IMG/VR virus record: IMGVR_UViG_3300043430_000167
DNA length: 20,000 bases
Source of the DNA: an uncultured virus (IMG/VR IMGVR_UViG_3300043430_000167)
Taxonomy: Duplodnaviria > Heunggongvirae > Uroviricota > Caudoviricetes
Reading direction: 5' to 3' (one strand)
Below are positions 1,968 to 16,219 of the stretch, piece by piece. Position 1 is the stretch's first letter. Each line of letters starts with the position of its first letter. The notes beneath the pieces are model-generated. The model saw only the letters and a program-made list of their open reading frames with translations, ran no database searches and was not told the origin of the DNA. A program made the position numbers and the translations under genes.

Positions 1968-2467
1968 TTTAAGAGACCTTTCGATGCTTTTCGTTTTTGA
2001 TAACTGACTGCTTCTCGTTTACGCCGCTGTTCTCTTGCTTCACGACTTTCGTTTTTTACCCGTTTTGAGTCGCATGCTTTGCAGATCGTGGATTTTCCGG
2101 TTGTTCGTCTGTTGTCAGAAACGAAGTCATTGAGTGTTTTTTGTTGTTTGCACACATAGCATCTACAAACCCCGTTATTGGCTAAGCGTTTGTCTTTTGC
2201 GATGTTTTCTGTTAGAGGTATAACTTGCATATTTAAAAGATCGTAGTGGCCGTTGTTATCTATTCGATCAATAGAACATCTCTCGAAATCTCTCGCCATG
2301 AACCATTTAACAAAATCTTCTTTTGATACCAACACTTGAACGCCTTTATAGGATGCGTTCTTCGACGTACGGGTGTTTTTCACTCGGTGGCACATCATGT
2401 AATAACGTGCCAGCGCTCGATGTCTTCCGCCGATAATCTTGTGCCGATTGTCATTTTTGCTCGGCAT
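1964..2467 (-). CDS. HNH-type homing endonuclease with C-terminal zinc finger
   Basis: SIDRIDNNGHYDLLNMQVIPLTEN matches the phage HNH variant (SIDRIDN.G.Y...N); CYVC...CKAC zinc finger; more AT-rich than its neighbours. Confidence 0.8.
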   Translation of the reverse strand: MPSKNDNRHKIIGGRHRALARYYMMCHRVKNTRTSKNASYKGVQVLVSKEDFVKWFMARDFERCSIDRIDNNGHYDLLNMQVIPLTENIAKDKRLANNGVCRCYVCKQQKTLNDFVSDNRRTTGKSTICKACDSKRVKNESREAREQRRKREAVSYQKRKASKGLLK

Positions 2468-2469
2468 GT

Positions 2470-2910
2470 TTAACGGCCTGTATGGCCGAAGCCGCCAGCG
2501 CCACGTTCAGTTGAACTGAGTTCGTCGACTACTTCAAAGACCGCCTGTTGGATGGGCAGGATCATGGCTTGGGCGATGCGGTCGCCGTGTTTGATGTGAA
2601 GGCCGCAATCAGGTGTGTCTACTGTGAGTTTCACTTTCACTTCACCGCGGTAATCGCTGTCAATCACACCAACGCAGTTGGCCAGACGCACACCGTAGTT
2701 GAACCCGTGGCCACTGCGGCTAAAGACCAGCATGACGTGATCTTGAGGAACTTCGAACGCCAGGCCTGTGGCGATAACATCAGGCGCGTATTGACCCACA
2801 TGGTATGTTGCACTCAATGAGAGGGCATGTAGGTCAAAGCACGCTGCACCGGGTGTTGCATAGGTAGGAATGATTGCTTCGGGGTGCAGCTTCTTGATTT
2901 TGACTTGCAT
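2470..2910 (-). CDS. dut: dUTP diphosphatase (trimeric dUTPase)
   Basis: All five motifs present: AACFDL, SRSG, GVIDSDYRGE, GDRIAQ, RGAGGFGHTG; GAGG SD upstream. Confidence 0.97.
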   Translation of the reverse strand: MQVKIKKLHPEAIIPTYATPGAACFDLHALSLSATYHVGQYAPDVIATGLAFEVPQDHVMLVFSRSGHGFNYGVRLANCVGVIDSDYRGEVKVKLTVDTPDCGLHIKHGDRIAQAMILPIQQAVFEVVDELSSTERGAGGFGHTGR

Positions 2911-3147
2911 GACTTTGTCCTCGTTAAAGTTGAAGTGAGTGGGCGACTAGGAACCCCTGATCCGACACAACTGTCCTTGCTTTCATCGGCACCTTTATCC
3001 GAATGCACGGAGGTACAAGGTAAGGCGATTCAGTGTGCTTAACCCACAAAGCAGCGCCCTTCTCCGGCCGGAACGGCTACCGTGCAAGTCTGTTTGGTCT
3101 CTTGCGGATTCCAAGGCCAGTATGCAACTCGCCAAAAGGGTGCTGCT

Positions 3148-3183
3148 TTGTAGGTGCTGGTTTCTTTCCCACCAGCAAAGTCA
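3148..3183. repeat. 36-nt repeat copy A, TTGTAGGTGCTGGTTTCTTTCCCACCAGCAAAGTCA
   Basis: Identical to 3378-3413; internal hairpin GCTGG/CCAGC. Confidence 0.95.
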
Positions 3184-3377
3184 TGTGGGTGACCTATTCA
3201 TCATCGAGGTGCTTCCTCAGATTGGCATAATTGTCGATTAGCTCAGTCTCGCAGGCATGCCCTGCGAAACATAGTTACAGCGTCCTGTAACGATCCTCTT
3301 TTACCCACAAGTCAAGCGCACTGGTCGCTACTCCAGTTGTCGGCATTCCGACGCACGCCTGCGTCTTCTGCGCTTGC

Positions 3378-3413
3378 TTGTAGGTGCTGGTTTCTTTCCC
3401 ACCAGCAAAGTCA
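3378..3413. repeat. 36-nt repeat copy B
   Basis: Identical to 3148-3183, 230 nt apart. Confidence 0.95.
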
Positions 3414-3458
3414 CCGATTCATGAGACTTGCGCTTTCGGTTAGCGAGTACGCCCGCTC

Positions 3459-3494
3459 ATGTGGGGGCAGGTTTCTTCCCAGCCTGCAAAGCCA
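3459..3494. repeat. 36-nt repeat copy C (diverged)
   Basis: ATGTGGGGGCAGGTTTCTTCCCAGCCTGCAAAGCCA; stem changed to GCAGG/CCTGC, a compensatory pair relative to copies A and B. Confidence 0.85.
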
Positions 3495-3586
3495 TGTGGG
3501 CACATCTAATTAGATGGATCTAGCCCTACCCACAGAACTGCATCCGAATGCCGCAAGTCGACATTATTGGCACTCAGTTGCAGTTC

Positions 3587-3614
3587 TGTAGGTGCTGGGG
3601 AGACGGCCAGCACC
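3587..3614. repeat. Partial repeat copy D
   Basis: TGTAGGTGCTGG-ggagacgg-CCAGCACC; same stem and flank, different loop. Confidence 0.75.
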
Positions 3615-3656
3615 GTTGTTGGTATTTGATCTACATAGCTAGCCCCCTCCGTGTTG

Positions 3657-4184
3657 TTAAGTCAGAGAATCGAAAAGTTCGAAGAGGTGCAGAACCTGGT
3701 CTTTAGCATCGTCGAGCGCGTTGTGGTGTGTGCCACTCCGCGTCATCTTGATGCTTGGGTTCATGTTCTTGAGTGTGCGATAGCAGCGGTTGTTGTAGAA
3801 CATCCACGGCTGTTCGATACCGCAATTGCGTAACGCGCTGCCCAGGATCACGTTGTCGAAGTCAGCCCCGTTACCCCATACAACCATGTCCTTCTTGACT
3901 GCGCAGCCGAGAGCGAAGTGCATGAACGCGATGAGTGCGTCCGGCATGGTCTCGCCTTTACGTTGGAACGCAGCCCGTGCCTCGTCGCTCTGCTGCATCC
4001 ACCAGAGTACCGTGCTCGGGTCCATAGCTCCGCCGTATTCAACAGCGGATGCAAGGTCGATGACTTTGTAGAACTCCTTGCCGAGTTTCATCTTGACCGG
4101 GTCGAATTCCACAGCGCCGATGGCGATGATGGCTGCATTGGGTGTGTTACCCATGGTCTCCAGGTCGATCATGAGGTTCTTCAT
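3657..4184 (-). CDS. DEDDh 3'-5' exonuclease (RNase T/Rv2179c-like phage family)
   Basis: ExoI MIDLETMG, ExoII WGNGADFD, ExoIII HHNALDDA. Confidence 0.92.
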   Translation of the reverse strand: MKNLMIDLETMGNTPNAAIIAIGAVEFDPVKMKLGKEFYKVIDLASAVEYGGAMDPSTVLWWMQQSDEARAAFQRKGETMPDALIAFMHFALGCAVKKDMVVWGNGADFDNVILGSALRNCGIEQPWMFYNNRCYRTLKNMNPSIKMTRSGTHHNALDDAKDQVLHLFELFDSLT

Positions 4185-4330
4185 TTCTTTTCCCTTTTAG
4201 CGAGTTTGCGCATATGCCCGTCATGACAGACGAGGTATTCCGTGTCGTCGATGATGCGGATCTTCACGATGGTCAGACCGAAGTCTGTTGCCCATTTGCG
4301 CATGAGATGCGCCTTGAGTTTGGTCAGCAT
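4181..4330 (-). CDS. Hypothetical protein (49 aa)
   Basis: MLTKLKAHLMRKWATDFGLTIVKIRIIDDTEYLVCHDGHMRKLAKREKK; fills the gap and has an ATGA overlap with the exonuclease start. Confidence 0.7.
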   Translation of the reverse strand: MLTKLKAHLMRKWATDFGLTIVKIRIIDDTEYLVCHDGHMRKLAKREKK

Positions 4331-4333
4331 GGT

Positions 4334-4705
4334 TCAGAGCACCAACAAGGTCGGTTGATGTTCATTTTCATACCACGACCAACCGATGCAATTGCCCGGC
4401 TCATCGTCTAGATATTGAGTCAGCCAATTGATGAAATGACTAATCTCATCGTCGTAGTTTTTCAAATCACTGCGACTGAAGATGTACCCGTCGGCATATC
4501 GGCTGTTCGTCCACGGCACGTGGTAGTAGCTGTTCGAACGTCCAAGGGCCTGCCAGCGATCACACTTAAAGAATTGATGATCAGGCCATGTTTCTGGAGC
4601 AGGTTCCCCCGCGTCGTTAAACATGAAGTTCAAAATTGCCTCGACGTTGTCAGGGATTATTGATTTCACACGTGCTTTGAGCACAAGTTCTGTGTAGCTT
4701 CCCAT
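4334..4705 (-). CDS. Hypothetical phage protein (123 aa)
   Basis: Start reassigned to ATG 4705 (MGSYTELVLKA...), immediately after the primase stop. Confidence 0.75.
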   Translation of the reverse strand: MGSYTELVLKARVKSIIPDNVEAILNFMFNDAGEPAPETWPDHQFFKCDRWQALGRSNSYYHVPWTNSRYADGYIFSRSDLKNYDDEISHFINWLTQYLDDEPGNCIGWSWYENEHQPTLLVL

Positions 4706-4706
4706 T

Positions 4707-7103
4707 TCATTTAACCCTCTTGAGTGTTTGACGTTGTGTTGTGGGCATGAGTGCCTTGCGTTCACGAGATGGCGTCTGCCATTCAATTTCTAATCCATAG
4801 AACGCGCCGTTATCCACCTTCATCTTTTTTGTGCTGATGCCATGGTGACGAAGCATGCTTGTGAGCTTGTTCGGACTACGTGGTGTGCCGCCACAGCAGT
4901 GCTCGAAGATCACACCCAGCTCGTCACGTGTAGCGCGGGTTATGGCTTCCTCGCTCCAGCGTTTCATCAAGGCTGCATACCCACGGGCGATCATGTTCTG
5001 GTCACCCATCTCCATCAGCAGGTTCTCGTCTGGCATGCAGCTGTGTAGTTGCTCAAAGTCCCCTGTGAGCAACGCACGTGCTGTTTCGTCGATGCTGGTG
5101 AGTGACAGCTCTTGAACCTTTGCTTTCGCCTCGGTCATCAGTGCTGTAGTTGCCGTGGTGACGCATGCTTTGCGCGTCATCAGGTAGTGAGTAAATGCAC
5201 CCAACTCGCTTTGGAGTTTCTTGATGAATTCAACCGGGGTTATGCTGTAGCGCGTGCTCAGCATTTCTTTGAGCATGACTGTCTGGTAATCACCCACGTT
5301 GTAGCGACGATCATTCGGCGGGATGCGTACGGGCTGTGGCCTGTTTGCACTCATGATGATCATGGTGTAGCTACGGACTTCCTTTGCCGCCTCACGCATG
5401 CGCCTGACGCTGAACGTAGGCTCTGTCACCATGTTGCGGAGCATGCCTTCAGTGCTCTTGTTCGTCAGAGCGTCTGCTTCTATTTCGTCGATGAAGCCAA
5501 TGAGAGCGCGTTCAATCCATTCGTTGAATTGATCTTCAAGCTGACCAGCTGGTTTGATGGCGACGTAGTGGCCCAGGATTCCTCTGAGCACGACGTTGAC
5601 CAAGATCCCTTTCCCTGTGCCTTCTATGCCGTGTAACACCCATGCAGTACCCGGCTTTTCACGTTTTTGAAACACCACAGCCAGGTGGTTCAAGAAGTGC
5701 TCAACACAATCCTTGTTCCCTCCGAGGACATGTTCGATCAGTGCTCTGACGCTATCCCACGACTTGCCTACATACTCTGTGTGACAACGTAAGAGTGGCG
5801 GACAAATGAAAGTGTTGATGGTTTTGCCTTCAACATTCACCACGATGTCTGACTGTGGGTCGAAGGTGATTTCCCATGTCGGGATGAATGGCCCTGGGTT
5901 CCTGCCATGGCTCAACACCCAGTCGTTGAGTGCGTCCTTGCTCTTGACTCGTTTGAGCCAGAGCTGATGAGCTTCTGCGTTCCAGAGACAGCTGTAATAC
6001 TCACTGTCTTCGCTGTTGCGGAACGCCAGCATCACATCGCCGTCTTCAGAGACTGAGGCGAGGTCGCCTTTCAGTTCACGTGTCAGCTCTGCGTAACGCT
6101 CAGGCATCACTTCCTTCATGAGCATTGAATCTTCGCCCTTGAAGTTGTGGATGAGTTCGAAGTTGTTGCGTGGATGGTAGTAAGCGCGAGAGTCACCCAT
6201 GGTGCCGTCAGTGCGCATGAAATTGTAGTAGATGAACTCACTATCAAGGCTATCGAATACTTCGTAGCCGTTAACTTCCCCCAGGCCTTTCTGAATTGTG
6301 TATTCGCCTTGCTGTGTGCTCTTTGTTGCGATCTTCTTCATTCCAGCAGCTTCACGCAGCTGGTTCCAGATCTCGCGTTTTTCCTTGGTCAACGCATCCA
6401 GTGCTTTGAGTGCGATGCGTGTGTGGGGCAGGGTGGCCAGTGATTTCTTTACGAGCTTCAGCCGGTCACTGGTTTTGATCGGACTGGTCATGTTCACGAA
6501 GATCGGCTCTGCGATGTAGAGCAGGCGGTCGTTCTGACAGAGTGTGATGTCCAAGCTGAAGTGCAGTCCTGATCCGGCAGAGTTTGTCAGAGTCAGTGCG
6601 TTGCGCAACGGCTTCAATGTGAAGTTGCTGTACATCAGCCAGGCTTTGAGCTGGCTCGGTTGCATGGCTTTGTCGAGCATGCAGATGATGTGACAGCTGA
6701 GGGTTTTGTCCTTGGGATTGAGCTTGTAGCTGGAGCTGTACTGGATGATGTAGCTCACATCATCGAGCTTCATGGCCAGCATGAACTCTTCAGGACTGCT
6801 GAATGGCGCTTTGTCCAGGTCGAAGCAGACCCATGTTGTGTTGGTGTTACTGCTGGTTGATCCAGCACGTGACTCGTTTCTGAGTTCCCGCTGGATAGTG
6901 CCTTTGAGCAGGCATGGCTTGGCCGGGTCATTCACAGCCGCCTGGATGACTTCAAACATGTCGTTGAGAGACTTCACCGTGTGAGTCTTGCTGGTGAAGT
7001 TGGCTACATGAGGGTAGCTGTCTTTCGTGATTGAACCATCACGGTTCTTCACTATCCGCTTGGTCAGCGGCACAGAAGCGTAAAGAAAGGTGAGTTTGAT
7101 CAT
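4707..7103 (-). CDS. Primase-helicase (N-terminal prim-pol-like domain, C-terminal SF3 / NrS-1-like helicase)
   Basis: N-terminal CFDLD and SCH motifs; C-terminal Walker A GIEGTGKG, Walker B FIDEIE, motif C MSAN, arginine finger DRRY. Confidence 0.85.
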   Translation of the reverse strand: MIKLTFLYASVPLTKRIVKNRDGSITKDSYPHVANFTSKTHTVKSLNDMFEVIQAAVNDPAKPCLLKGTIQRELRNESRAGSTSSNTNTTWVCFDLDKAPFSSPEEFMLAMKLDDVSYIIQYSSSYKLNPKDKTLSCHIICMLDKAMQPSQLKAWLMYSNFTLKPLRNALTLTNSAGSGLHFSLDITLCQNDRLLYIAEPIFVNMTSPIKTSDRLKLVKKSLATLPHTRIALKALDALTKEKREIWNQLREAAGMKKIATKSTQQGEYTIQKGLGEVNGYEVFDSLDSEFIYYNFMRTDGTMGDSRAYYHPRNNFELIHNFKGEDSMLMKEVMPERYAELTRELKGDLASVSEDGDVMLAFRNSEDSEYYSCLWNAEAHQLWLKRVKSKDALNDWVLSHGRNPGPFIPTWEITFDPQSDIVVNVEGKTINTFICPPLLRCHTEYVGKSWDSVRALIEHVLGGNKDCVEHFLNHLAVVFQKREKPGTAWVLHGIEGTGKGILVNVVLRGILGHYVAIKPAGQLEDQFNEWIERALIGFIDEIEADALTNKSTEGMLRNMVTEPTFSVRRMREAAKEVRSYTMIIMSANRPQPVRIPPNDRRYNVGDYQTVMLKEMLSTRYSITPVEFIKKLQSELGAFTHYLMTRKACVTTATTALMTEAKAKVQELSLTSIDETARALLTGDFEQLHSCMPDENLLMEMGDQNMIARGYAALMKRWSEEAITRATRDELGVIFEHCCGGTPRSPNKLTSMLRHHGISTKKMKVDNGAFYGLEIEWQTPSRERKALMPTTQRQTLKRVK

Positions 7104-13239: not shown

Positions 13240-13434
13240 ATGTACCAGATGCCTCTGCAGTTGGACAACACCTACGGGGTCTCAAGAGAGACGCTGAACC
13301 TGGTCAAGCGGTACTCGTCGAGGGCGTTTACGCGTGACGAGCTGCTCATGGTGTGGTTCGAGGATGAGCATGCGGAGTTCGAGACGGTGTGCGGCAAGCG
13401 CACCTCTGTGCGCTACGAGGACATGCAGCCATGA
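13240..13434 (+). CDS. Hypothetical protein (64 aa)
   Basis: AGGA SD before ATG 13240 (MYQMPLQLDN...); ATGA overlap with the next gene. Confidence 0.7.
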   Translation: MYQMPLQLDNTYGVSRETLNLVKRYSSRAFTRDELLMVWFEDEHAEFETVCGKRTSVRYEDMQP

Positions 13435-13622
13435 GGCTACTCCCCCACATCCGCAAGCAGGGCTCGCGCTGGCTCTGCACGACGTGCTGGCTCCCGGAGT
13501 ACGAGGGAGCGGGGCCCACGCCGCGCGAGGCGTACGAGAGCTGGAAGCAGGTGCACTTCGCCACACCCCCGTCGGTCGTGGTGAACGCGCTGTGGGCGTA
13601 CAGAGAGCGGAGCACAGCATGA
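13431..13622 (+). CDS. Hypothetical protein (63 aa)
   Basis: MRLLPHIRKQGSRWLCTTCW...; ATGA overlaps at both ends. Confidence 0.7.
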   Translation: MRLLPHIRKQGSRWLCTTCWLPEYEGAGPTPREAYESWKQVHFATPPSVVVNALWAYRERSTA

Positions 13623-16219
13623 CCCTTCCGCGCTTGATACTCCCGGATAGCGAGCAGGAGACCGTCGCAGCAGGTGTGCTCGGCGTAGGCCTCTGGCGCA
13701 GGCTCGTGGCCACATTGAAGCTCCTTGGCGGCGGCTCGCGCAAGCAGGTCATCGAGCACGACGGCTACGAGGTCATGGTAGAGGCCACGCACCAGCACGG
13801 CCAGGACTCAGGGCGGGTGAGGGTGGAGGGTGGCGGGTATGCTTCGTTCATACACTTGCCGGACGTAACGCCTTACAAGAAATTGATGATCGAGCGCAGC
13901 ATGCGGCCAACAAGCGGAAACGTAGCGGGTTTCTTTTCAACAGGCACATACCCGAACCATCAGTATTACGACCTTGTGACTCGTCTGGTTGTAGGGACTA
14001 CGGGCGAGGTTTTGGCTGAGGTCGTCACGCGAATGGATCAAACTATAGACGGCCGCTTGTACGACGTATTTTGCTTCATGTATGAAGACTGGTATTTCGA
14101 CGATTTCTACCTTGAGGGTTTCGGCTTGGTGTTTCAGAACATCAAGTCTCTTGCTTCAGCAGGGCCAGAGAACAGCTATAGGCGAGCTGATCTAAACTTG
14201 ATTCCCGGTTCATTTAGATATGCCAATTGGACGTATGCGTACCCTAGCGACCCTGCTTATAGCAGCAGTGATACTGAGTGGAACGGCGGCACGACAAAGA
14301 TAGCCGTCCCTCTGCGCGAGGACGTGTTTTACAATTTCAATTACGCAGTCTTGTTTCGGAATTCGCTAAGCGAGTTGTACGCCAATGATTGGATGGGTGA
14401 CGCGGGCTATCATCTTTGGCCGGAGGATATGAGCGAGCAGCGCGGCGAAAATTTTCACGAAGTTACGCTGTTATATGAGCGCGCGGCATCCAGTTATTAT
14501 GGTTATGCCGGTAATTTGGCCACAACCAGTGTGGTTGGGCGAGTGGAGTGGGAGTCCTCCGTAGCAGACGAAAAGGTTTACGGAAAAGGTCTCACGTTAG
14601 ATCAAGTCACTTATAGCGACTTTCCCACTCGTACTACGTTCAATAAACAGAAGGGGTTACCGTGCGCGTCACCACTTATAAAGTTGCTCAACGGCAAGGC
14701 GACGGTTTTGAGAAAAACGGAGGACGCGGTTGGGGAAGGGGTGGTAATCAAGTCGAACGTGTCGTGGCGAACGCCGTTTGAACACAGCGCATTTGACGAA
14801 ATGGCAGGGGCGACTTCCCCTGTCGGGAATGCGAATTTGGCTGCGGGCGACTTGGTAGATGTACGAACCTCAATTGGACCGGTGCGTGATCTAAGAAGAA
14901 AGCAGGGCGTAACGGCGACTAAAGTTGTGCTGGACCAGCTACGAGACGGGTCGGCGCCAGCTAAGTGGTTAGACACTTGCAGGGAATACTTGTATGACAA
15001 CTATGTAGATAGGGCGAAGTACGAATTGGCGCAAGGATCGACTGAGTGGGACTATTCGGTTGCAGTAGCTGAATACGGCCCGAGGTATTCGACGCCAGTA
15101 TCCAGTGTCCCAGCGTACGAGTGGATTAAGTTTGAAGCAGTGAGCACTTTGACGTTAAAAAGTAAAATGTCAGAAAAAGCGTTTGCTGCATTGGTTGTAC
15201 CTGATGGGGTGAGCCCGAGCTGGGGCAGCGGCGAAGCGAAGCTTGTTTGTGAGGTCAGGGGCACCTTGATTGTTTCCGGTGGGAATCCTGTTACCGGAAG
15301 CGCTCCCCGCCTGATGTTTGATGATTTTCCCACCCCACCTGCTGGTTCATCAGAAGACGTGTATTTTTTTGAGTCACATGACGTATCCGCGGCATCTTGG
15401 GCCAAGCGTAAGCGCGGGTGGTGGTCCACCTCATTCATGCAGGACGAAAGCTCTATCTGCCCGCCAGGGCGAGTGAGCGGCGAGTACGTGTACGGTAGGT
15501 TTGACCACTTGGCGTCATCCAAGGTTCTATCCAGCGACCTGATTTATCAACTATTCCGTAAGTTTGATATCTCAGGCGACTGGTGGTACTCGTATTCGTT
15601 ATCTAGCCGAGATAGTTATATAAACACAAGTTCTTCGGCTTATATCTCTTCTTTGTCTTTCAAGCCGGCGAGTATCGTGGAGCTTCTACCTCAAGTTACA
15701 CATCCGGTGAAACGGTTAGGGCCAGTTGAGCCCTTAACGGACTCGGCGGTTGCGTTTTGTATCCCAGACGGCTTAAGGATTACTTTAGAGTTGTTCGGCA
15801 CAAAAAACGGGGGATTGTATGGAGACCCCTCTCAGGAAGAAGATCTGGTGGTTTACGGCACTCTGCATTTGAAATGGAGCGCAAAGGACCATAGGTGTAT
15901 TTTTGAGCGGTGGCAAGGGTTGTTAAAAGCAGACGGGTCTCCCGTCGAAGAATTTGGCGTTCCTTATGACAACCAGCACGCCCGAATGGGTAAAAATAAG
16001 ATAAACCCTGTAACTAGCACTTCTTTCCGATACCGGTATTACTTATTCCAAGGGGATGTGCTGTACCCGTTTGACGGCGGGGAGCTGAAGAACGCTATTA
16101 TCAGGTTCGCTTGTGCGACAGGGTCTGAAGATAACGTTGAGGGCGAAAAAGGGCTGTTTAAGTCGTTCGGTCTTTACGCGGATGTCCAGCGGGCTTTCCA
16201 AGCGTGCGCTAAGAGTTAG
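13619..16219 (+). CDS. Large hypothetical protein (866 aa), possibly virion-associated
   Basis: Start reassigned to ATG 13619 (GGAG SD, ATGA overlap); aromatic/Ser/Gly-rich, beta-rich looking; located between terL and portal. Confidence 0.8.
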   Translation: MTLPRLILPDSEQETVAAGVLGVGLWRRLVATLKLLGGGSRKQVIEHDGYEVMVEATHQHGQDSGRVRVEGGGYASFIHLPDVTPYKKLMIERSMRPTSGNVAGFFSTGTYPNHQYYDLVTRLVVGTTGEVLAEVVTRMDQTIDGRLYDVFCFMYEDWYFDDFYLEGFGLVFQNIKSLASAGPENSYRRADLNLIPGSFRYANWTYAYPSDPAYSSSDTEWNGGTTKIAVPLREDVFYNFNYAVLFRNSLSELYANDWMGDAGYHLWPEDMSEQRGENFHEVTLLYERAASSYYGYAGNLATTSVVGRVEWESSVADEKVYGKGLTLDQVTYSDFPTRTTFNKQKGLPCASPLIKLLNGKATVLRKTEDAVGEGVVIKSNVSWRTPFEHSAFDEMAGATSPVGNANLAAGDLVDVRTSIGPVRDLRRKQGVTATKVVLDQLRDGSAPAKWLDTCREYLYDNYVDRAKYELAQGSTEWDYSVAVAEYGPRYSTPVSSVPAYEWIKFEAVSTLTLKSKMSEKAFAALVVPDGVSPSWGSGEAKLVCEVRGTLIVSGGNPVTGSAPRLMFDDFPTPPAGSSEDVYFFESHDVSAASWAKRKRGWWSTSFMQDESSICPPGRVSGEYVYGRFDHLASSKVLSSDLIYQLFRKFDISGDWWYSYSLSSRDSYINTSSSAYISSLSFKPASIVELLPQVTHPVKRLGPVEPLTDSAVAFCIPDGLRITLELFGTKNGGLYGDPSQEEDLVVYGTLHLKWSAKDHRCIFERWQGLLKADGSPVEEFGVPYDNQHARMGKNKINPVTSTSFRYRYYLFQGDVLYPFDGGELKNAIIRFACATGSEDNVEGEKGLFKSFGLYADVQRAFQACAKS

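What the first reader, a model, noticed from the sequence alone, without database searches (positions are those of the whole stretch)
2911..3656. Array of conserved 36-nt hairpin units, each followed by a different structured RNA domain
Seen: on the minus (operon) strand the unit UGACUUU-GCUGG-UGGGAAAGAAA-CCAGC-ACCUACAA occurs twice identically (3148-3183, 3378-3413), once with a compensatory stem change GCAGG/CCUGC (3459-3494) and once partially (3587-3614). In three copies the 3' ACCUACA begins a 15-20 bp stem that closes with UGUGGGU around unrelated interiors (3528-3593, 3303-3385, 3042-3155). The stem ends are conserved while the stem bodies differ yet stay paired. Inference: a polycistronic precursor of small RNAs with a common processing or protein-loading handle plus variable cargo. 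Candidate roles are anti-defence decoys (RNA anti-CRISPR or type III antitoxin mimics), antisense RNAs of the P1 C4/P4 CI kind, RNase III-released sRNAs, or antitermination sites. I do not recognise it as a named family.
Basis: partly seen in the sequence, partly recalled or inferred. Interest (0 to 1): 0.85.

Follow-up and report, generated by a model that had tools for sequence, protein, structure and literature searches.

The report
Conserved phage hairpin handle before structured RNAs
A 746-base non-coding stretch of a phage operon carries three to four copies of a short hairpin motif that recurs almost unchanged in unrelated phages, often beside tRNA genes, and probably acts as a tRNA-like handle marking off structured RNAs.

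Summary
Window 2911-3656 (minus strand) is non-coding, lies between an exonuclease gene and a dUTPase gene, and folds far better than shuffles. It holds two identical 36-mers, one 75% copy with a compensatory stem change, and one partial copy. Three copies are followed at once by 9-25 bp closing helices with conserved ends (ACCUACA/UGUGGGU) and unrelated interiors.

The unit is not private to this phage. The same motif (UGACUUUG, a covarying 5-6 bp stem, the loop UGGGAAAGAAA, then an ACCNACA box) occurs in about 25 distinct viral or metagenomic loci and in the Gordonia phage Orchid group. It was found once in each of five phage records searched whole. It is about ten times enriched beside tRNA/tmRNA genes, and it has no Rfam match.

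In five loci it is fused to a much commoner unannotated phage cloverleaf. That element has a 7-bp acceptor-like helix of 30 covarying types, a D-like arm and a T-like arm, and occurs for example in the HK620 late leader.

Best reading (about 0.35): the hairpin plus the conserved 7-bp helix mimics a tRNA acceptor/T-arm minihelix in permuted topology, and host tRNA-processing nucleases use it to cut out variable stem-loop RNAs. Processing itself is not shown. CRISPR-repeat mimic, ToxI-like, C4, boxA and promoter readings failed their tests.

The parts
2911..3656 (-). Whole non-coding, highly structured region inside the minus-strand operon
   Evidence: No minus-strand ORF of 50 aa or more lies within it. 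MFE is -299.6 kcal/mol, z = -7.4. No sigma-70-like promoter was found (0, against 1.8 expected), and the only terminator-like site on this strand is weak (3291-3274, 3 G-C pairs).
3595..3612 (-). Copy A hairpin (GCUGG, 8-nt loop, CCAGC): a partial unit that lacks the conserved 5' flank and loop
   Evidence: model R1 E 3.9.
3528..3593 (-). Module A closing helix and cargo: ACCUACA (3587-3593) to UGUGGGU (3528-3534)
   Evidence: Inverted repeat I1. 24 of 25 positions pair, 3 of them G.U.
3459..3499 (-). Copy B unit: UGGCUUU, GCAGG, loop CUGGGAAGAAA, CCUGC, CCCCACA. Its box can pair upstream with UGUGGG at 3529-3534 (6 bp), enclosing the hairpin at 3499-3526
   Evidence: 40.5 bits. The upstream pairing is read from the sequence and is inferred.
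3421..3464 (-). Stem-loop after copy B (CAUGAG...CUCAUG)
   Evidence: MFE fold.
3378..3418 (-). Copy C unit: exact 36-mer at 3378-3413, hairpin at 3386-3406
   Evidence: 60.6 bits.
3303..3385 (-). Module C closing helix and cargo: ACCUACA at 3379-3385, UGUGGGU at 3303-3309
   Evidence: In a related phage variant the interior (3323-3369) is diverged while the ends are kept.
3246..3291 (-). Two further hairpins between modules C and D (3274-3291, 3246-3270)
   Evidence: Inverted repeats I12 and I4; MFE fold.
3148..3188 (-). Copy D unit: exact 36-mer at 3148-3183, hairpin at 3156-3176, preceded by ACCCACA at 3185-3191
   Evidence: 60.0 bits.
3042..3155 (-). Module D closing helix and cargo: ACCUACA at 3149-3155, UGUGGGU at 3042-3048
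   Evidence: Inverted repeat I2. 20 of 21 positions pair. Contigs of related phages in three runs join across all or part of 2938-3302.
2911..3041 (-). 3' terminal structured segment, ending at the dUTPase ribosome-binding site
   Evidence: MFE fold.
3657..4184 (-). Upstream gene: Rv2179c-like 3'-5' exonuclease
   Evidence: Pfam PF16473, E 8.4e-55.
2470..2910 (-). Downstream gene: dUTPase
   Evidence: Pfam PF00692, E 1.7e-23.

Best explanation
The region is read through as part of the minus-strand early/replication operon. Each unit is an RNA handle: a 5-6 bp hairpin whose 3' arm runs without a gap into a conserved 7-nt strand (ACCNACA). That strand pairs with UGUNGGU. Hairpin and helix together give a 12-bp stack with the 5 + 7 geometry of a tRNA T-arm plus acceptor stem. 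The topology is circularly permuted: the variable 'cargo' stem-loop sits where the tRNA termini would be. I infer that host tRNA-processing endonucleases use this stack as a punctuation mark: RNase P on the 5' side of UGUNGGU, and RNase Z or RNase E beyond ACCNACA, possibly after RNase III has opened the long duplex. The cuts would separate the flanking mRNAs and release discrete structured RNAs whose interiors evolve fast. Shown here: the repeats, the covarying stem, the helix start at the hairpin edge, the strand, the link with tRNA/tmRNA genes, and the fusion with a cloverleaf element. Inferred: transcription, which nucleases act, and what the cargo does.
For: (1) The motif recurs in unrelated phages. 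There are 12 viral contigs with the strict pattern, and more with patterns that leave the inner stem free. 26 distinct copies were aligned. BLAST finds only the ~25-45 nt motif shared between most loci. Four phage genomes that carry it share almost no proteins.
(2) The stem pairs by covariation. Among pattern hits classed only by the 5' flank TGA/TGG, 20 of 25 have all three free stem positions paired, against 5 of 22 with other flanks and about 5% expected by chance; six alternative stems are fully paired. On the alignment, 95.5% of cells are paired and 0 of 500 shuffles reach this.
(3) A perfect helix scoring 9 or more starts within 1 nt of the hairpin end in 9 of 27 loci, against 44 of 1020 control positions. 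At a score of 12 or more the figures are 5 of 27 against 2 of 1020. The first 7 bp keep their sequence class: ACCUACA, ACCAACA, ACCAUCA, ACUAUCA, AUCCACA.
(4) The strand is the motif strand: 6 G.U pairs against 1 A.C in the window's three helices, and a lower folding z-score on the minus strand.
(5) tRNA or tmRNA genes lie in 8 of 26 motif loci, against 5 of 158 control phage loci. In one locus a tRNA-Gln starts 7 nt after the motif. In Gordonia phage Orchid the motif lies in a non-coding gap upstream of tRNA-Leu and a tmRNA.
(6) In 5 of 24 non-window loci the motif is fused to the 'Y' cloverleaf, and in 4 of them the 3' strand of the motif's closing helix is that element's acceptor-like 5' strand. 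In the Y element, 64 of 71 distinct loci have a perfect 7-bp helix formed by the 7 nt that follow a 5-bp hairpin. There are 30 helix types, and 60 of the 64 partners are followed by the D-like hairpin.
(7) The motif is phage-borne and needs no shared phage protein, which fits a universal host partner. It was found once in each of 5 phage records searched whole, in 1 of 151 and 1 of 121 bacterial or archaeal genomes, and in loci of widely different G+C.
(8) Modules behave as cassettes. Contigs of close relatives in three other runs join across all or part of 2938-3302, one carries a diverged interior of module C, and the 36-mer and 3282-3311 are contig break points with raised depth.
Against: There are no RNA-end data. 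The only RNA-labelled run laid is 'a guess: may be DNA' and consists of contigs, so neither transcription nor cleavage is shown.
The loop (UGGGAAAGAAA, 11 nt) is not a canonical 7-nt T-loop. ARAGORN and the Rfam tRNA model see nothing here.
The most conserved part, the 5' flank UGACUUUG, and the invariant loop are not explained by a minihelix model. They point to a sequence-specific partner or a fold of their own.
The helix continues as a duplex beyond the 7 conserved pairs. From recalled knowledge, RNase P prefers an unpaired leader.
About half of the copies have no closing helix and are followed by a tRNA, by a ribosome-binding site and start codon 25-60 nt on, or by a terminator.
Much of the motif's invariance (CTTTG, the GG, AAGAAAC, and the terminal G-C pairs) was imposed by my search patterns.
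Confidence: 0.35

Rival explanations
1. The motif is a binding site (sponge, decoy or recruitment site) for a conserved host protein or RNP. The invariant loop and 5' flank are the recognition surface, and the neighbouring helices are only context. Possible roles are anti-defence or takeover of a host RNA-binding factor.
For: The loop and the 5' flank are the most conserved parts, while the stem varies. The motif is conserved in phages that share no proteins and have widely different G+C, and in an actinophage. It is usually single-copy. A motif-like hairpin replaces the last pseudoknot in three phage-type tmRNA loci, so it can be part of a mature RNA. One high-G+C phage carries tandem hairpins with the same loop.
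Against: No partner is identified. The tight junction with the long-range helix and the fusion to the cloverleaf are not explained. Three variants keep the flank and stem but have other loops. Much of the apparent invariance was forced by the search patterns.
Confidence: 0.2
2. The motif is a cis-acting co-transcriptional element of the nut/put/rrn-leader kind. It binds the elongating RNA polymerase or Nus factors, protects the long untranslated stretch from Rho, and holds the 5' strand until the 3' strand of the long-range helix emerges.
For: The architecture resembles the rrn leader: a hairpin, a conserved single strand, then the 5' strand of a leader-trailer helix (PMC10250234, passages read). 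The element sits at untranslated islands inside operons, on the motif strand, with no promoter or terminator of its own. Repeated copies fit reloading after each processed helix.
Against: The gamma-proteobacterial boxA consensus GYTCTTTAANA (PMC5725501, passage read) is not met; only CTTT aligns. In two tRNA arrays the motif lies inside the array, not at its head. In four or more loci a gene starts 25-60 nt downstream.
Confidence: 0.15
3. The motif, with its closing helix as a variable peripheral stem, is a small autonomous RNA such as a new self-cleaving ribozyme or a ligand-sensing fold. It cuts or switches the transcript without host factors.
For: The pattern is typical of such RNAs: invariant unpaired nucleotides, covarying stems, and a peripheral helix with insertions from about 18 to about 380 nt. 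It is independent of host and phage lineage. It lies in RNA-gene islands that need processing. A 4-bp pairing between the flank CUUU and the loop AAAG is possible, read from the sequence.
Against: No known ribozyme or riboswitch model matches. The flank-loop pairing cannot be tested because both sides are invariant, and three variants keep the flank with unrelated loops. Downstream contexts are too varied for a riboswitch.
Confidence: 0.1
4. The element works as DNA: a Chi-containing protective site, an origin or iteron element, or a protein operator in the replication module.
For: The two exact copies contain GCTGGTGG; that this is the E. coli Chi octamer is recalled, not tested. The octamer is 3-5 times over-represented in three other motif-bearing phage genomes. 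One copy per genome and a place among replication genes would suit an origin.
Against: Stem changes are compensatory and destroy the octamer in copy B and in many loci. G.U pairs favour one RNA strand. Origins and operators are not expected to be conserved between phages that share no proteins. The over-representation may be a codon effect.
Confidence: 0.07
5. The units are RNA mimics of a CRISPR repeat (RNA anti-CRISPR) or of a type III antitoxin.
Against: All 21 loci of the metagenome scan and all non-self loci of the viral scans hold a single match, so no array with this repeat was seen. Copies are 81-230 nt apart, not tandem. No ToxN/AbiQ-like or Cas gene was found in the window.
Confidence: 0.03

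Closest known systems
tRNA-like processing signals: plant mitochondrial t-elements, MALAT1 mascRNA, gammaherpesvirus tRNA-like/miRNA units
   Same: A tRNA-like acceptor/T-arm stack embedded in a longer transcript is used by RNase P or RNase Z to make the ends of neighbouring RNAs. That is the mechanism proposed here. The handle has the same 5 + 7 bp geometry and sits beside real tRNA genes.
   Different: There is no canonical T-loop and no tRNA-model hit. The topology is permuted, with the cargo where the termini would be. A conserved 5' flank is present. Cleavage is untested. For t-elements (PMC1920247) and mascRNA I saw only titles and abstract starts in the listing; the herpesvirus case is recalled.
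The 'Y' phage cloverleaf element found here (HK620 late leader, Klebsiella phage SBP, more than 120 IMG/VR contigs)
   Same: The grammar is the same: a G+C-rich 5-bp hairpin runs directly into a CACCNACA-type strand that pairs with UGUNGGUG. It is physically fused to the window's motif in 5 loci.
   Different: In Y the partner strand lies upstream (normal tRNA topology), followed by a D-like hairpin. Its loops differ, and the window contains no Y or D-like hairpin. It is itself unannotated.
P1/P7 C4 and P4 CI antisense RNAs (Rfam RF01695)
   Same: These are structured RNAs embedded in phage operon transcripts and cut out by RNase P (recalled). A true C4/isrK/c4-a1b1 set lies about 800 nt downstream of the motif in one prophage. 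In the window, a 10-mer occurs twice and a 13-of-15 complement lies between the two copies (D8 and I5), which recalls the CI seqA/B/C layout (recalled).
   Different: No C4-clan match in the window at gathering score or at E up to 10. The helix lengths and the junction differ from the C4 consensus shown.
rrn leader boxB-boxA-boxC with leader-trailer helix; lambda nut
   Same: A conserved element lies just upstream of the 5' strand of a long-range helix that encloses a structured RNA, and that helix is a likely RNase III substrate (PMC10250234, passages).
   Different: The boxA consensus is not met (PMC5725501, passage). The G/U-rich strand is the 3' strand here, whereas boxC is on the 5' strand.
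CRISPR repeat mimics (RNA anti-CRISPRs) and ToxI-type antitoxin repeats
   Same: 36-nt hairpin repeats carried by phages.
   Different: No matching array, not tandem, no partner gene. The properties of these families are recalled.

Membership tests
Any Rfam 15 family (including C4, tRNA, tmRNA, known ribozymes, riboswitches, GOLLD, ROOL) | Covariance-model score at or above the family's gathering score | tested here: not met
   0 matches in the window. Only two chance-level hits at E 4-7 in 2800-3750. Nothing at the motif in 11 + 11 related loci.
tRNA | Cloverleaf with canonical D- and T-loops, detectable by ARAGORN | tested here: not met
   0 genes in the window.
tRNA-like processing element | Hairpin stacked without a gap on a roughly 7-bp helix (acceptor/T-arm geometry) | tested here: met
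   5-6 bp stem, 0 +/- 1 nt, then a conserved 7-bp helix. The same junction in the Y element has 30 covarying helix types.
tRNA-like processing element | Cleavage by RNase P or RNase Z at the borders | not testable with these tools
   Only contigs could be laid.
boxA / nut-type antitermination site | Match to the boxA consensus GYTCTTTAANA | tested here: not met
   The consensus comes from PMC5725501. The motif's TGACTTTGCTG aligns only at CTTT.
CRISPR repeat mimic (RNA anti-CRISPR) | Near-identity to the repeat of a CRISPR array | tested here: not met
   21 of 21 metagenome loci and all non-self viral loci hold a single match.
Type III toxin-antitoxin antitoxin (ToxI-like) | Tandem direct repeats next to an endoribonuclease toxin gene | tested here: not met
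   Spacing is 230 and 81 nt. None of the 17 ORFs scanned matched a toxin family, and 8 of them matched nothing.
Sigma-70 promoter | -35 and -10 hexamers at 16-18 bp | tested here: not met
   0 sites in 2300-4400, against 1.8 expected.
Chi site | The octamer GCTGGTGG (identity recalled) kept across copies | tested here: not met
   It is present in the two exact copies but lost in copy B and in 11 of the 26 aligned copies through compensatory stem changes or loop changes.
tmRNA | tRNA-like domain plus a tag reading frame | tested here: not met
   ARAGORN finds none. No tag-like frame in three frames.

The most novel reading that the evidence does not exclude
The hairpin-plus-7-bp helix is a circularly permuted tRNA-like handle, part of a so far undescribed and widespread phage RNA 'grammar' (box CACCNACA, anti-box UGUNGGUG, several hairpin types, and a cloverleaf found in well-studied phages such as HK620). 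Phages would use it to produce families of fast-evolving, exchangeable stem-loop RNAs from inside operons. Alternatively, the invariant flank and loop form a new autonomous catalytic or protein-capturing RNA module.
Probability: 0.2. Interest if true: 0.9.

Novelty: new variant of a known kind. Interest (0 to 1): 0.72.

Why it matters
Phage genomes are compact, so 746 non-coding bases inside an operon must earn their place. This work shows that the repeated unit is not a local curiosity. It belongs to a conserved, unannotated RNA motif shared by phages that have almost no genes in common. The motif is tied to tRNA/tmRNA islands and to an even commoner cloverleaf-like element that sits unannotated in textbook phages, such as the HK620 late leader, and in 107 of 5426 complete E. 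coli genomes. If the handle is a tRNA-like punctuation mark, it reveals a general way for phages to make small structured RNAs with exchangeable cargo. It would also give two new RNA families for Rfam and for phage annotation. Cultured systems exist in which to test it: Gordonia phage Orchid, HK620 and Klebsiella phage SBP.

Tried and rejected
- Rfam at gathering and at E up to 10 gave nothing relevant.
- BLAST of the 746 nt against GenBank phages gave no match. The 41-nt motif found only the six Orchid-group records. Two other motif variants gave only chance hits in coding DNA.
- Only one near relative exists in IMG/VR, and it is identical over the region, so it carries no covariation.
- Pairing of the 5' flank with a downstream CAAAGUCA near a start codon occurs only in the window and in L167: 3 of 26 copies, from 2 places. 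It was rejected as a general feature.
- A cis complement of the loop was found only as a 7-mer beside a terminator in L168 and as scattered 6-7-mers elsewhere.
- Antisense targets in the 22-kb record: the best is 16 of 17 at E 0.2.
- The flank-loop pseudoknot (CUUU:AAAG) is untestable and is not kept in three variants.
- Sigma-54 spacing and the -12 element were checked by eye on alignment A1. The GC is part of the varying stem, so this was rejected.
- No shared phage protein was found as a partner.
- An upstream anti-box for the motif's own box is present in some loci, at about the chance rate.
- The tmRNA reading of the window was rejected.
- Pas sRNAs: the paper (passages read) says strain HS has none, yet HS carries the Y region at 100% identity, so they are different.
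- Reads: all four runs are contigs, and the RNA label of X18 is a guess. Parts without cover, and depth, are not used as evidence of expression or absence.
Full report
**Setting**

The window is the minus strand of a 22,167-base IMG/VR phage record estimated 34% complete. On the window's minus strand lies an operon. It encodes a DUF5906 NTPase-domain protein (likely primase/helicase, 4707-7103), an Rv2179c-like 3'-5' exonuclease (3657-4184), a dUTPase (2470-2910) and a PD-(D/E)XK nuclease (1269-1967). Terminase and a P22-type portal are on the other strand.

The stretch 2911-3656 lies between the exonuclease and the dUTPase. No minus-strand ORF of 50 aa or more lies within it. It has no tRNA and no sigma-70-like promoter. 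The only terminator-like site on that strand is a weak one at 3291-3274. It therefore has to be read through from upstream.

**Check of the observation**

- The 36-mer occurs twice exactly, at 3148-3183 and 3378-3413; no shuffle gave 2 matches.
- A third copy at 3459-3494 is 75% identical, with GCAGG/CCTGC replacing GCTGG/CCAGC.
- A fourth copy keeps only the stem and the 3' box (hairpin at 3595-3612) and is not significant on its own (E 3.9).
- Copies A, C and D are each followed without a gap by a helix that starts ACCUACA and ends UGUGGGU. The helices are 24 of 25, 17 of 18 and 20 of 21 positions paired, around unrelated interiors.
- The region folds with z = -7.4 on the minus strand and -5.9 on the plus strand.
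- The three helices hold six G.U pairs against one A.C, which points to RNA of the minus strand.

**The unit is a family**

No Rfam family matches. The only close relative in IMG/VR is identical.

A degenerate pattern of the unit, however, hit 11 other viral contigs. Patterns that leave the three inner stem pairs free hit further viral and metagenome contigs, and one prophage in a Lysobacterales MAG. BLAST found the motif in six Gordonia phage records of the Orchid group.

Twenty-six distinct copies align without gaps. The consensus is UGACUUUG, a 5-6 bp stem, UGGGAAAGAAA, the stem, then ACC(A/U)ACA.

Pairwise BLAST shows that unrelated loci share only these 25-45 nt. Four motif-bearing phage genomes with G+C of 47-60% share only a dUTPase, a portal and three weak matches.

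CTTTG, GG, AAGAAAC and the two outer stem pairs were fixed by my patterns, so their invariance is not evidence. The free positions are informative. Classing hits only by the flank (TGA/TGG), 20 of 25 have all three inner pairs formed, against 5 of 22 of the rest and about 5% expected by chance. Six different stems are fully paired. The pair counts agree: 95.5% paired, and 0 of 500 shuffles as high.

Three variants keep the flank, stem and box but have other loops.

**Distribution**

- The model built from the alignment (R1) finds one copy in each of five phage records searched whole, four of them complete.
- It finds one copy per ~3-kb locus elsewhere, though one phage has a second, divergent unit that the model misses.
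- It finds the motif in 1 of 151 genomes of the class of the Lysobacterales MAG, and in 1 of 121 genomes of another phylum. In both cases the one hit is the genome that brought the locus in.

The motif is thus phage-borne and usually single. The window, with three to four copies, is the exception.

**Context**

The motif lies among replication and nucleotide-metabolism genes: SSB, a Cas4-type exonuclease, DNA polymerase and a dNMP kinase.

tRNA or tmRNA genes lie in 8 of 26 motif loci, against 5 of 158 control phage loci of equal size. Examples:
- A tRNA-Gln starts 7 nt after the motif.
- The motif lies inside two tRNA arrays.
- It lies upstream of tRNA-Leu and a tmRNA in phage Orchid.
- It lies upstream of a permuted tmRNA in another contig.

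A perfect long-range helix starts within one base of the hairpin's end in 9 of 27 loci at a score of 9 or more, against 4.3% of control positions. At a score of 12 or more it is 5 of 27 against 0.2%. The first seven pairs stay within one sequence class while covarying. The other copies are followed by a tRNA, by a ribosome-binding site and start codon, or by a terminator.

**A wider grammar**

BLAST between loci exposed two further conserved hairpins. One of them (Y: GCCGG, AGAUCAGCA, CCGGC, then CACCACA) was taken to the databases.
- It is in 123 GenBank phage records.
- In HK620 it lies in the late leader, between qut and the late terminator.
- In Klebsiella phage SBP it lies in a 560-nt gap, antisense to its neighbours. 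There it has its own TTGACA-17-TAATTAT promoter-like site and a strong terminator.
- It is in 107 of 5426 complete E. coli genomes, without annotation in the rows shown.

In 64 of 71 distinct loci, the seven bases after the Y hairpin pair perfectly with a 7-mer 50-190 nt upstream. In 60 of those 64 the 7-mer is followed by the second conserved hairpin (AAU GCGC AGGCUGAU GCGC). There are 30 different helix types.

This is a cloverleaf-like element of 64-214 nt. It has a 7-bp acceptor-like stem, a 4-bp D-like arm with GG in an 8-nt loop, a variable arm, and a 5-bp T-like arm that runs straight into the acceptor-like 3' strand. An N-CC tail follows in 19 of 71 loci, against 1 in 16 by chance.

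Rfam has no match in 20 such loci, and its sequence strings are in no paper searched. It is not one of the Pas sRNAs: strain HS carries it, but the paper says HS has no Pas genes (passages read).

**Link to the finding**

In 5 of 24 non-window motif loci the window's motif and the Y cloverleaf lie within 300 nt of each other. In four of them the 3' strand of the motif's closing helix is the acceptor-like 5' strand of the cloverleaf, followed by the D-like hairpin.

The motif therefore uses the same junction as the T-like arm of the cloverleaf: a 5-bp hairpin running directly into a CACCNACA strand. The difference is that its partner strand lies downstream. Topologically this is a permuted acceptor/T-arm minihelix, with the variable stem-loop sitting where the tRNA ends would be.

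The window itself has neither Y nor the D-like hairpin. It does have three anti-boxes (UGUGGGU) and at least six boxes. Copy B's box can pair upstream with the UGUGGG of module A across a 28-nt hairpin, giving a tRNA-sized three-arm element. This last point is read from the sequence and is inferred.

**Variation between strains**

Contigs of public metagenome runs were laid on 2850-3750.
- Contigs of close relatives in three runs join across all or part of 2938-3302, which removes module D and/or the hairpins before it. Depending on the run, the missing part is replaced by 35-40 or by 85 other letters.
- One relative has a diverged interior of module C (3323-3369), while the 36-mer and the helix ends are unchanged.
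- The 36-mer and 3282-3311 are contig break points with raised depth, and different sequences continue beyond them.

Modules thus behave as cassettes with conserved ends. Because these are contigs, and the one 'RNA' run is only guessed to be RNA, nothing can be said about expression.

**Mechanism**

The coherent reading is that the hairpin plus the conserved 7-bp helix is a tRNA-like handle, and that host tRNA-processing nucleases use it to punctuate the operon transcript and free the structured cargo. This accounts for:
- the 5 + 7 geometry;
- the gapless junction;
- the company of tRNA and tmRNA genes;
- the fusion with a cloverleaf;
- the lack of any shared phage protein;
- conservation across hosts.

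It does not account for the invariant loop and the UGACUUUG flank. These may be a second recognition surface, a fold of their own, or a cleavage site. From recalled consensus motifs, GA/CUUU would suit RNase E. I hold this mechanism at about 0.35.

The rivals are listed with their tests: a protein-binding decoy, a nut/rrn-like co-transcriptional element, an autonomous ribozyme or switch, a DNA-level site, and a CRISPR or ToxI mimic.

**Novelty**

Neither the motif nor the cloverleaf is in Rfam 15. Neither appears as a sequence string in the papers searched, nor in the word searches. The library covers open-access papers only, and supplements were not searched. As a kind, tRNA-like processing signals are known. 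This topology, its family and its spread in phages appear to be new.

Noticed in passing
L386-L465; L507 (HK620) 1440-1536; L508 (Klebsiella phage SBP) 1425-1540: A widespread, unannotated cloverleaf-like phage RNA. It has a 7-bp acceptor-like helix (30 covarying types; perfect in 64 of 71 loci), a D-like hairpin AAUGCGCAGGCUGAUGCGC, a variable arm, and a T-like hairpin GCCGG-AGAUCAGCA-CCGGC. It is in more than 121 IMG/VR contigs, 123 GenBank phage records and 107 E. coli genomes. It has no Rfam match.
   Followed up: partly
window 3156-3176 and 3386-3406 (motif hairpins); G001-G003: The motif contains GCTGGTGG; that this is the E. coli Chi octamer is recalled. The octamer is over-represented in three other motif-bearing phages: 20 + 5, 5 + 6 and 5 + 2 occurrences, against 3.9, 1.45 and 0.8 expected per strand.
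   Followed up: partly
L224 1435-1753; L304 and L312 around 1501: Three phage-type contigs, one of them binned in an archaeal MAG, encode tmRNAs in which a motif-like hairpin (the same flank and loop, stems GUUAG or GUCAG) takes the place of the last pseudoknot.
   Followed up: partly
L246 473-671 (minus strand): The Lysobacterales prophage has a P1-type immunity set about 800 nt downstream of the motif: C4 at 67 bits, plus isrK (47.1) and c4-a1b1 (39.9), both just below their gathering scores.
   Followed up: no
L356 520-620 (minus strand): A high-G+C phage carries three to four tandem short hairpins whose loops read GGGAAAGAAA or GGAAA. They may be a related use of the same loop.
   Followed up: no
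window 2997-3006, 3542-3551 and 3341-3355: The 10-mer GCAUUCGGAU occurs in module A and in the 3' segment. A 13-of-15 complement sits in a hairpin of module C, between the two copies (D8 and I5). This could be internal antisense pairing.
   Followed up: no
window 3185-3191 and 3495-3499: Copies B and D are preceded by CCCACAUG. ACCCACA could pair perfectly with the UGUGGGU strands, giving alternative folds.
   Followed up: no
window 3629-3656: Directly after the exonuclease stop codon comes a ribosome-binding-like GGAGGGGG, then ATG followed at once by TAG: a start-stop pair.
   Followed up: no
L307 1564-2598: A transposase gene (phrog_4285) starts 36 nt after the motif in one contig. It may be an insertion sequence that targets the hairpin.
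   Followed up: no
L170 1995-2067; L298 2263-2693: A suppressor-type tRNA (anticodon tta) lies in the tRNA array beside the motif. A permuted tmRNA lies about 750 nt downstream of the motif in another phage.
   Followed up: no
window 13334-16219: A 961-aa ORF between the terminase and portal genes has no Pfam match.
   Followed up: no
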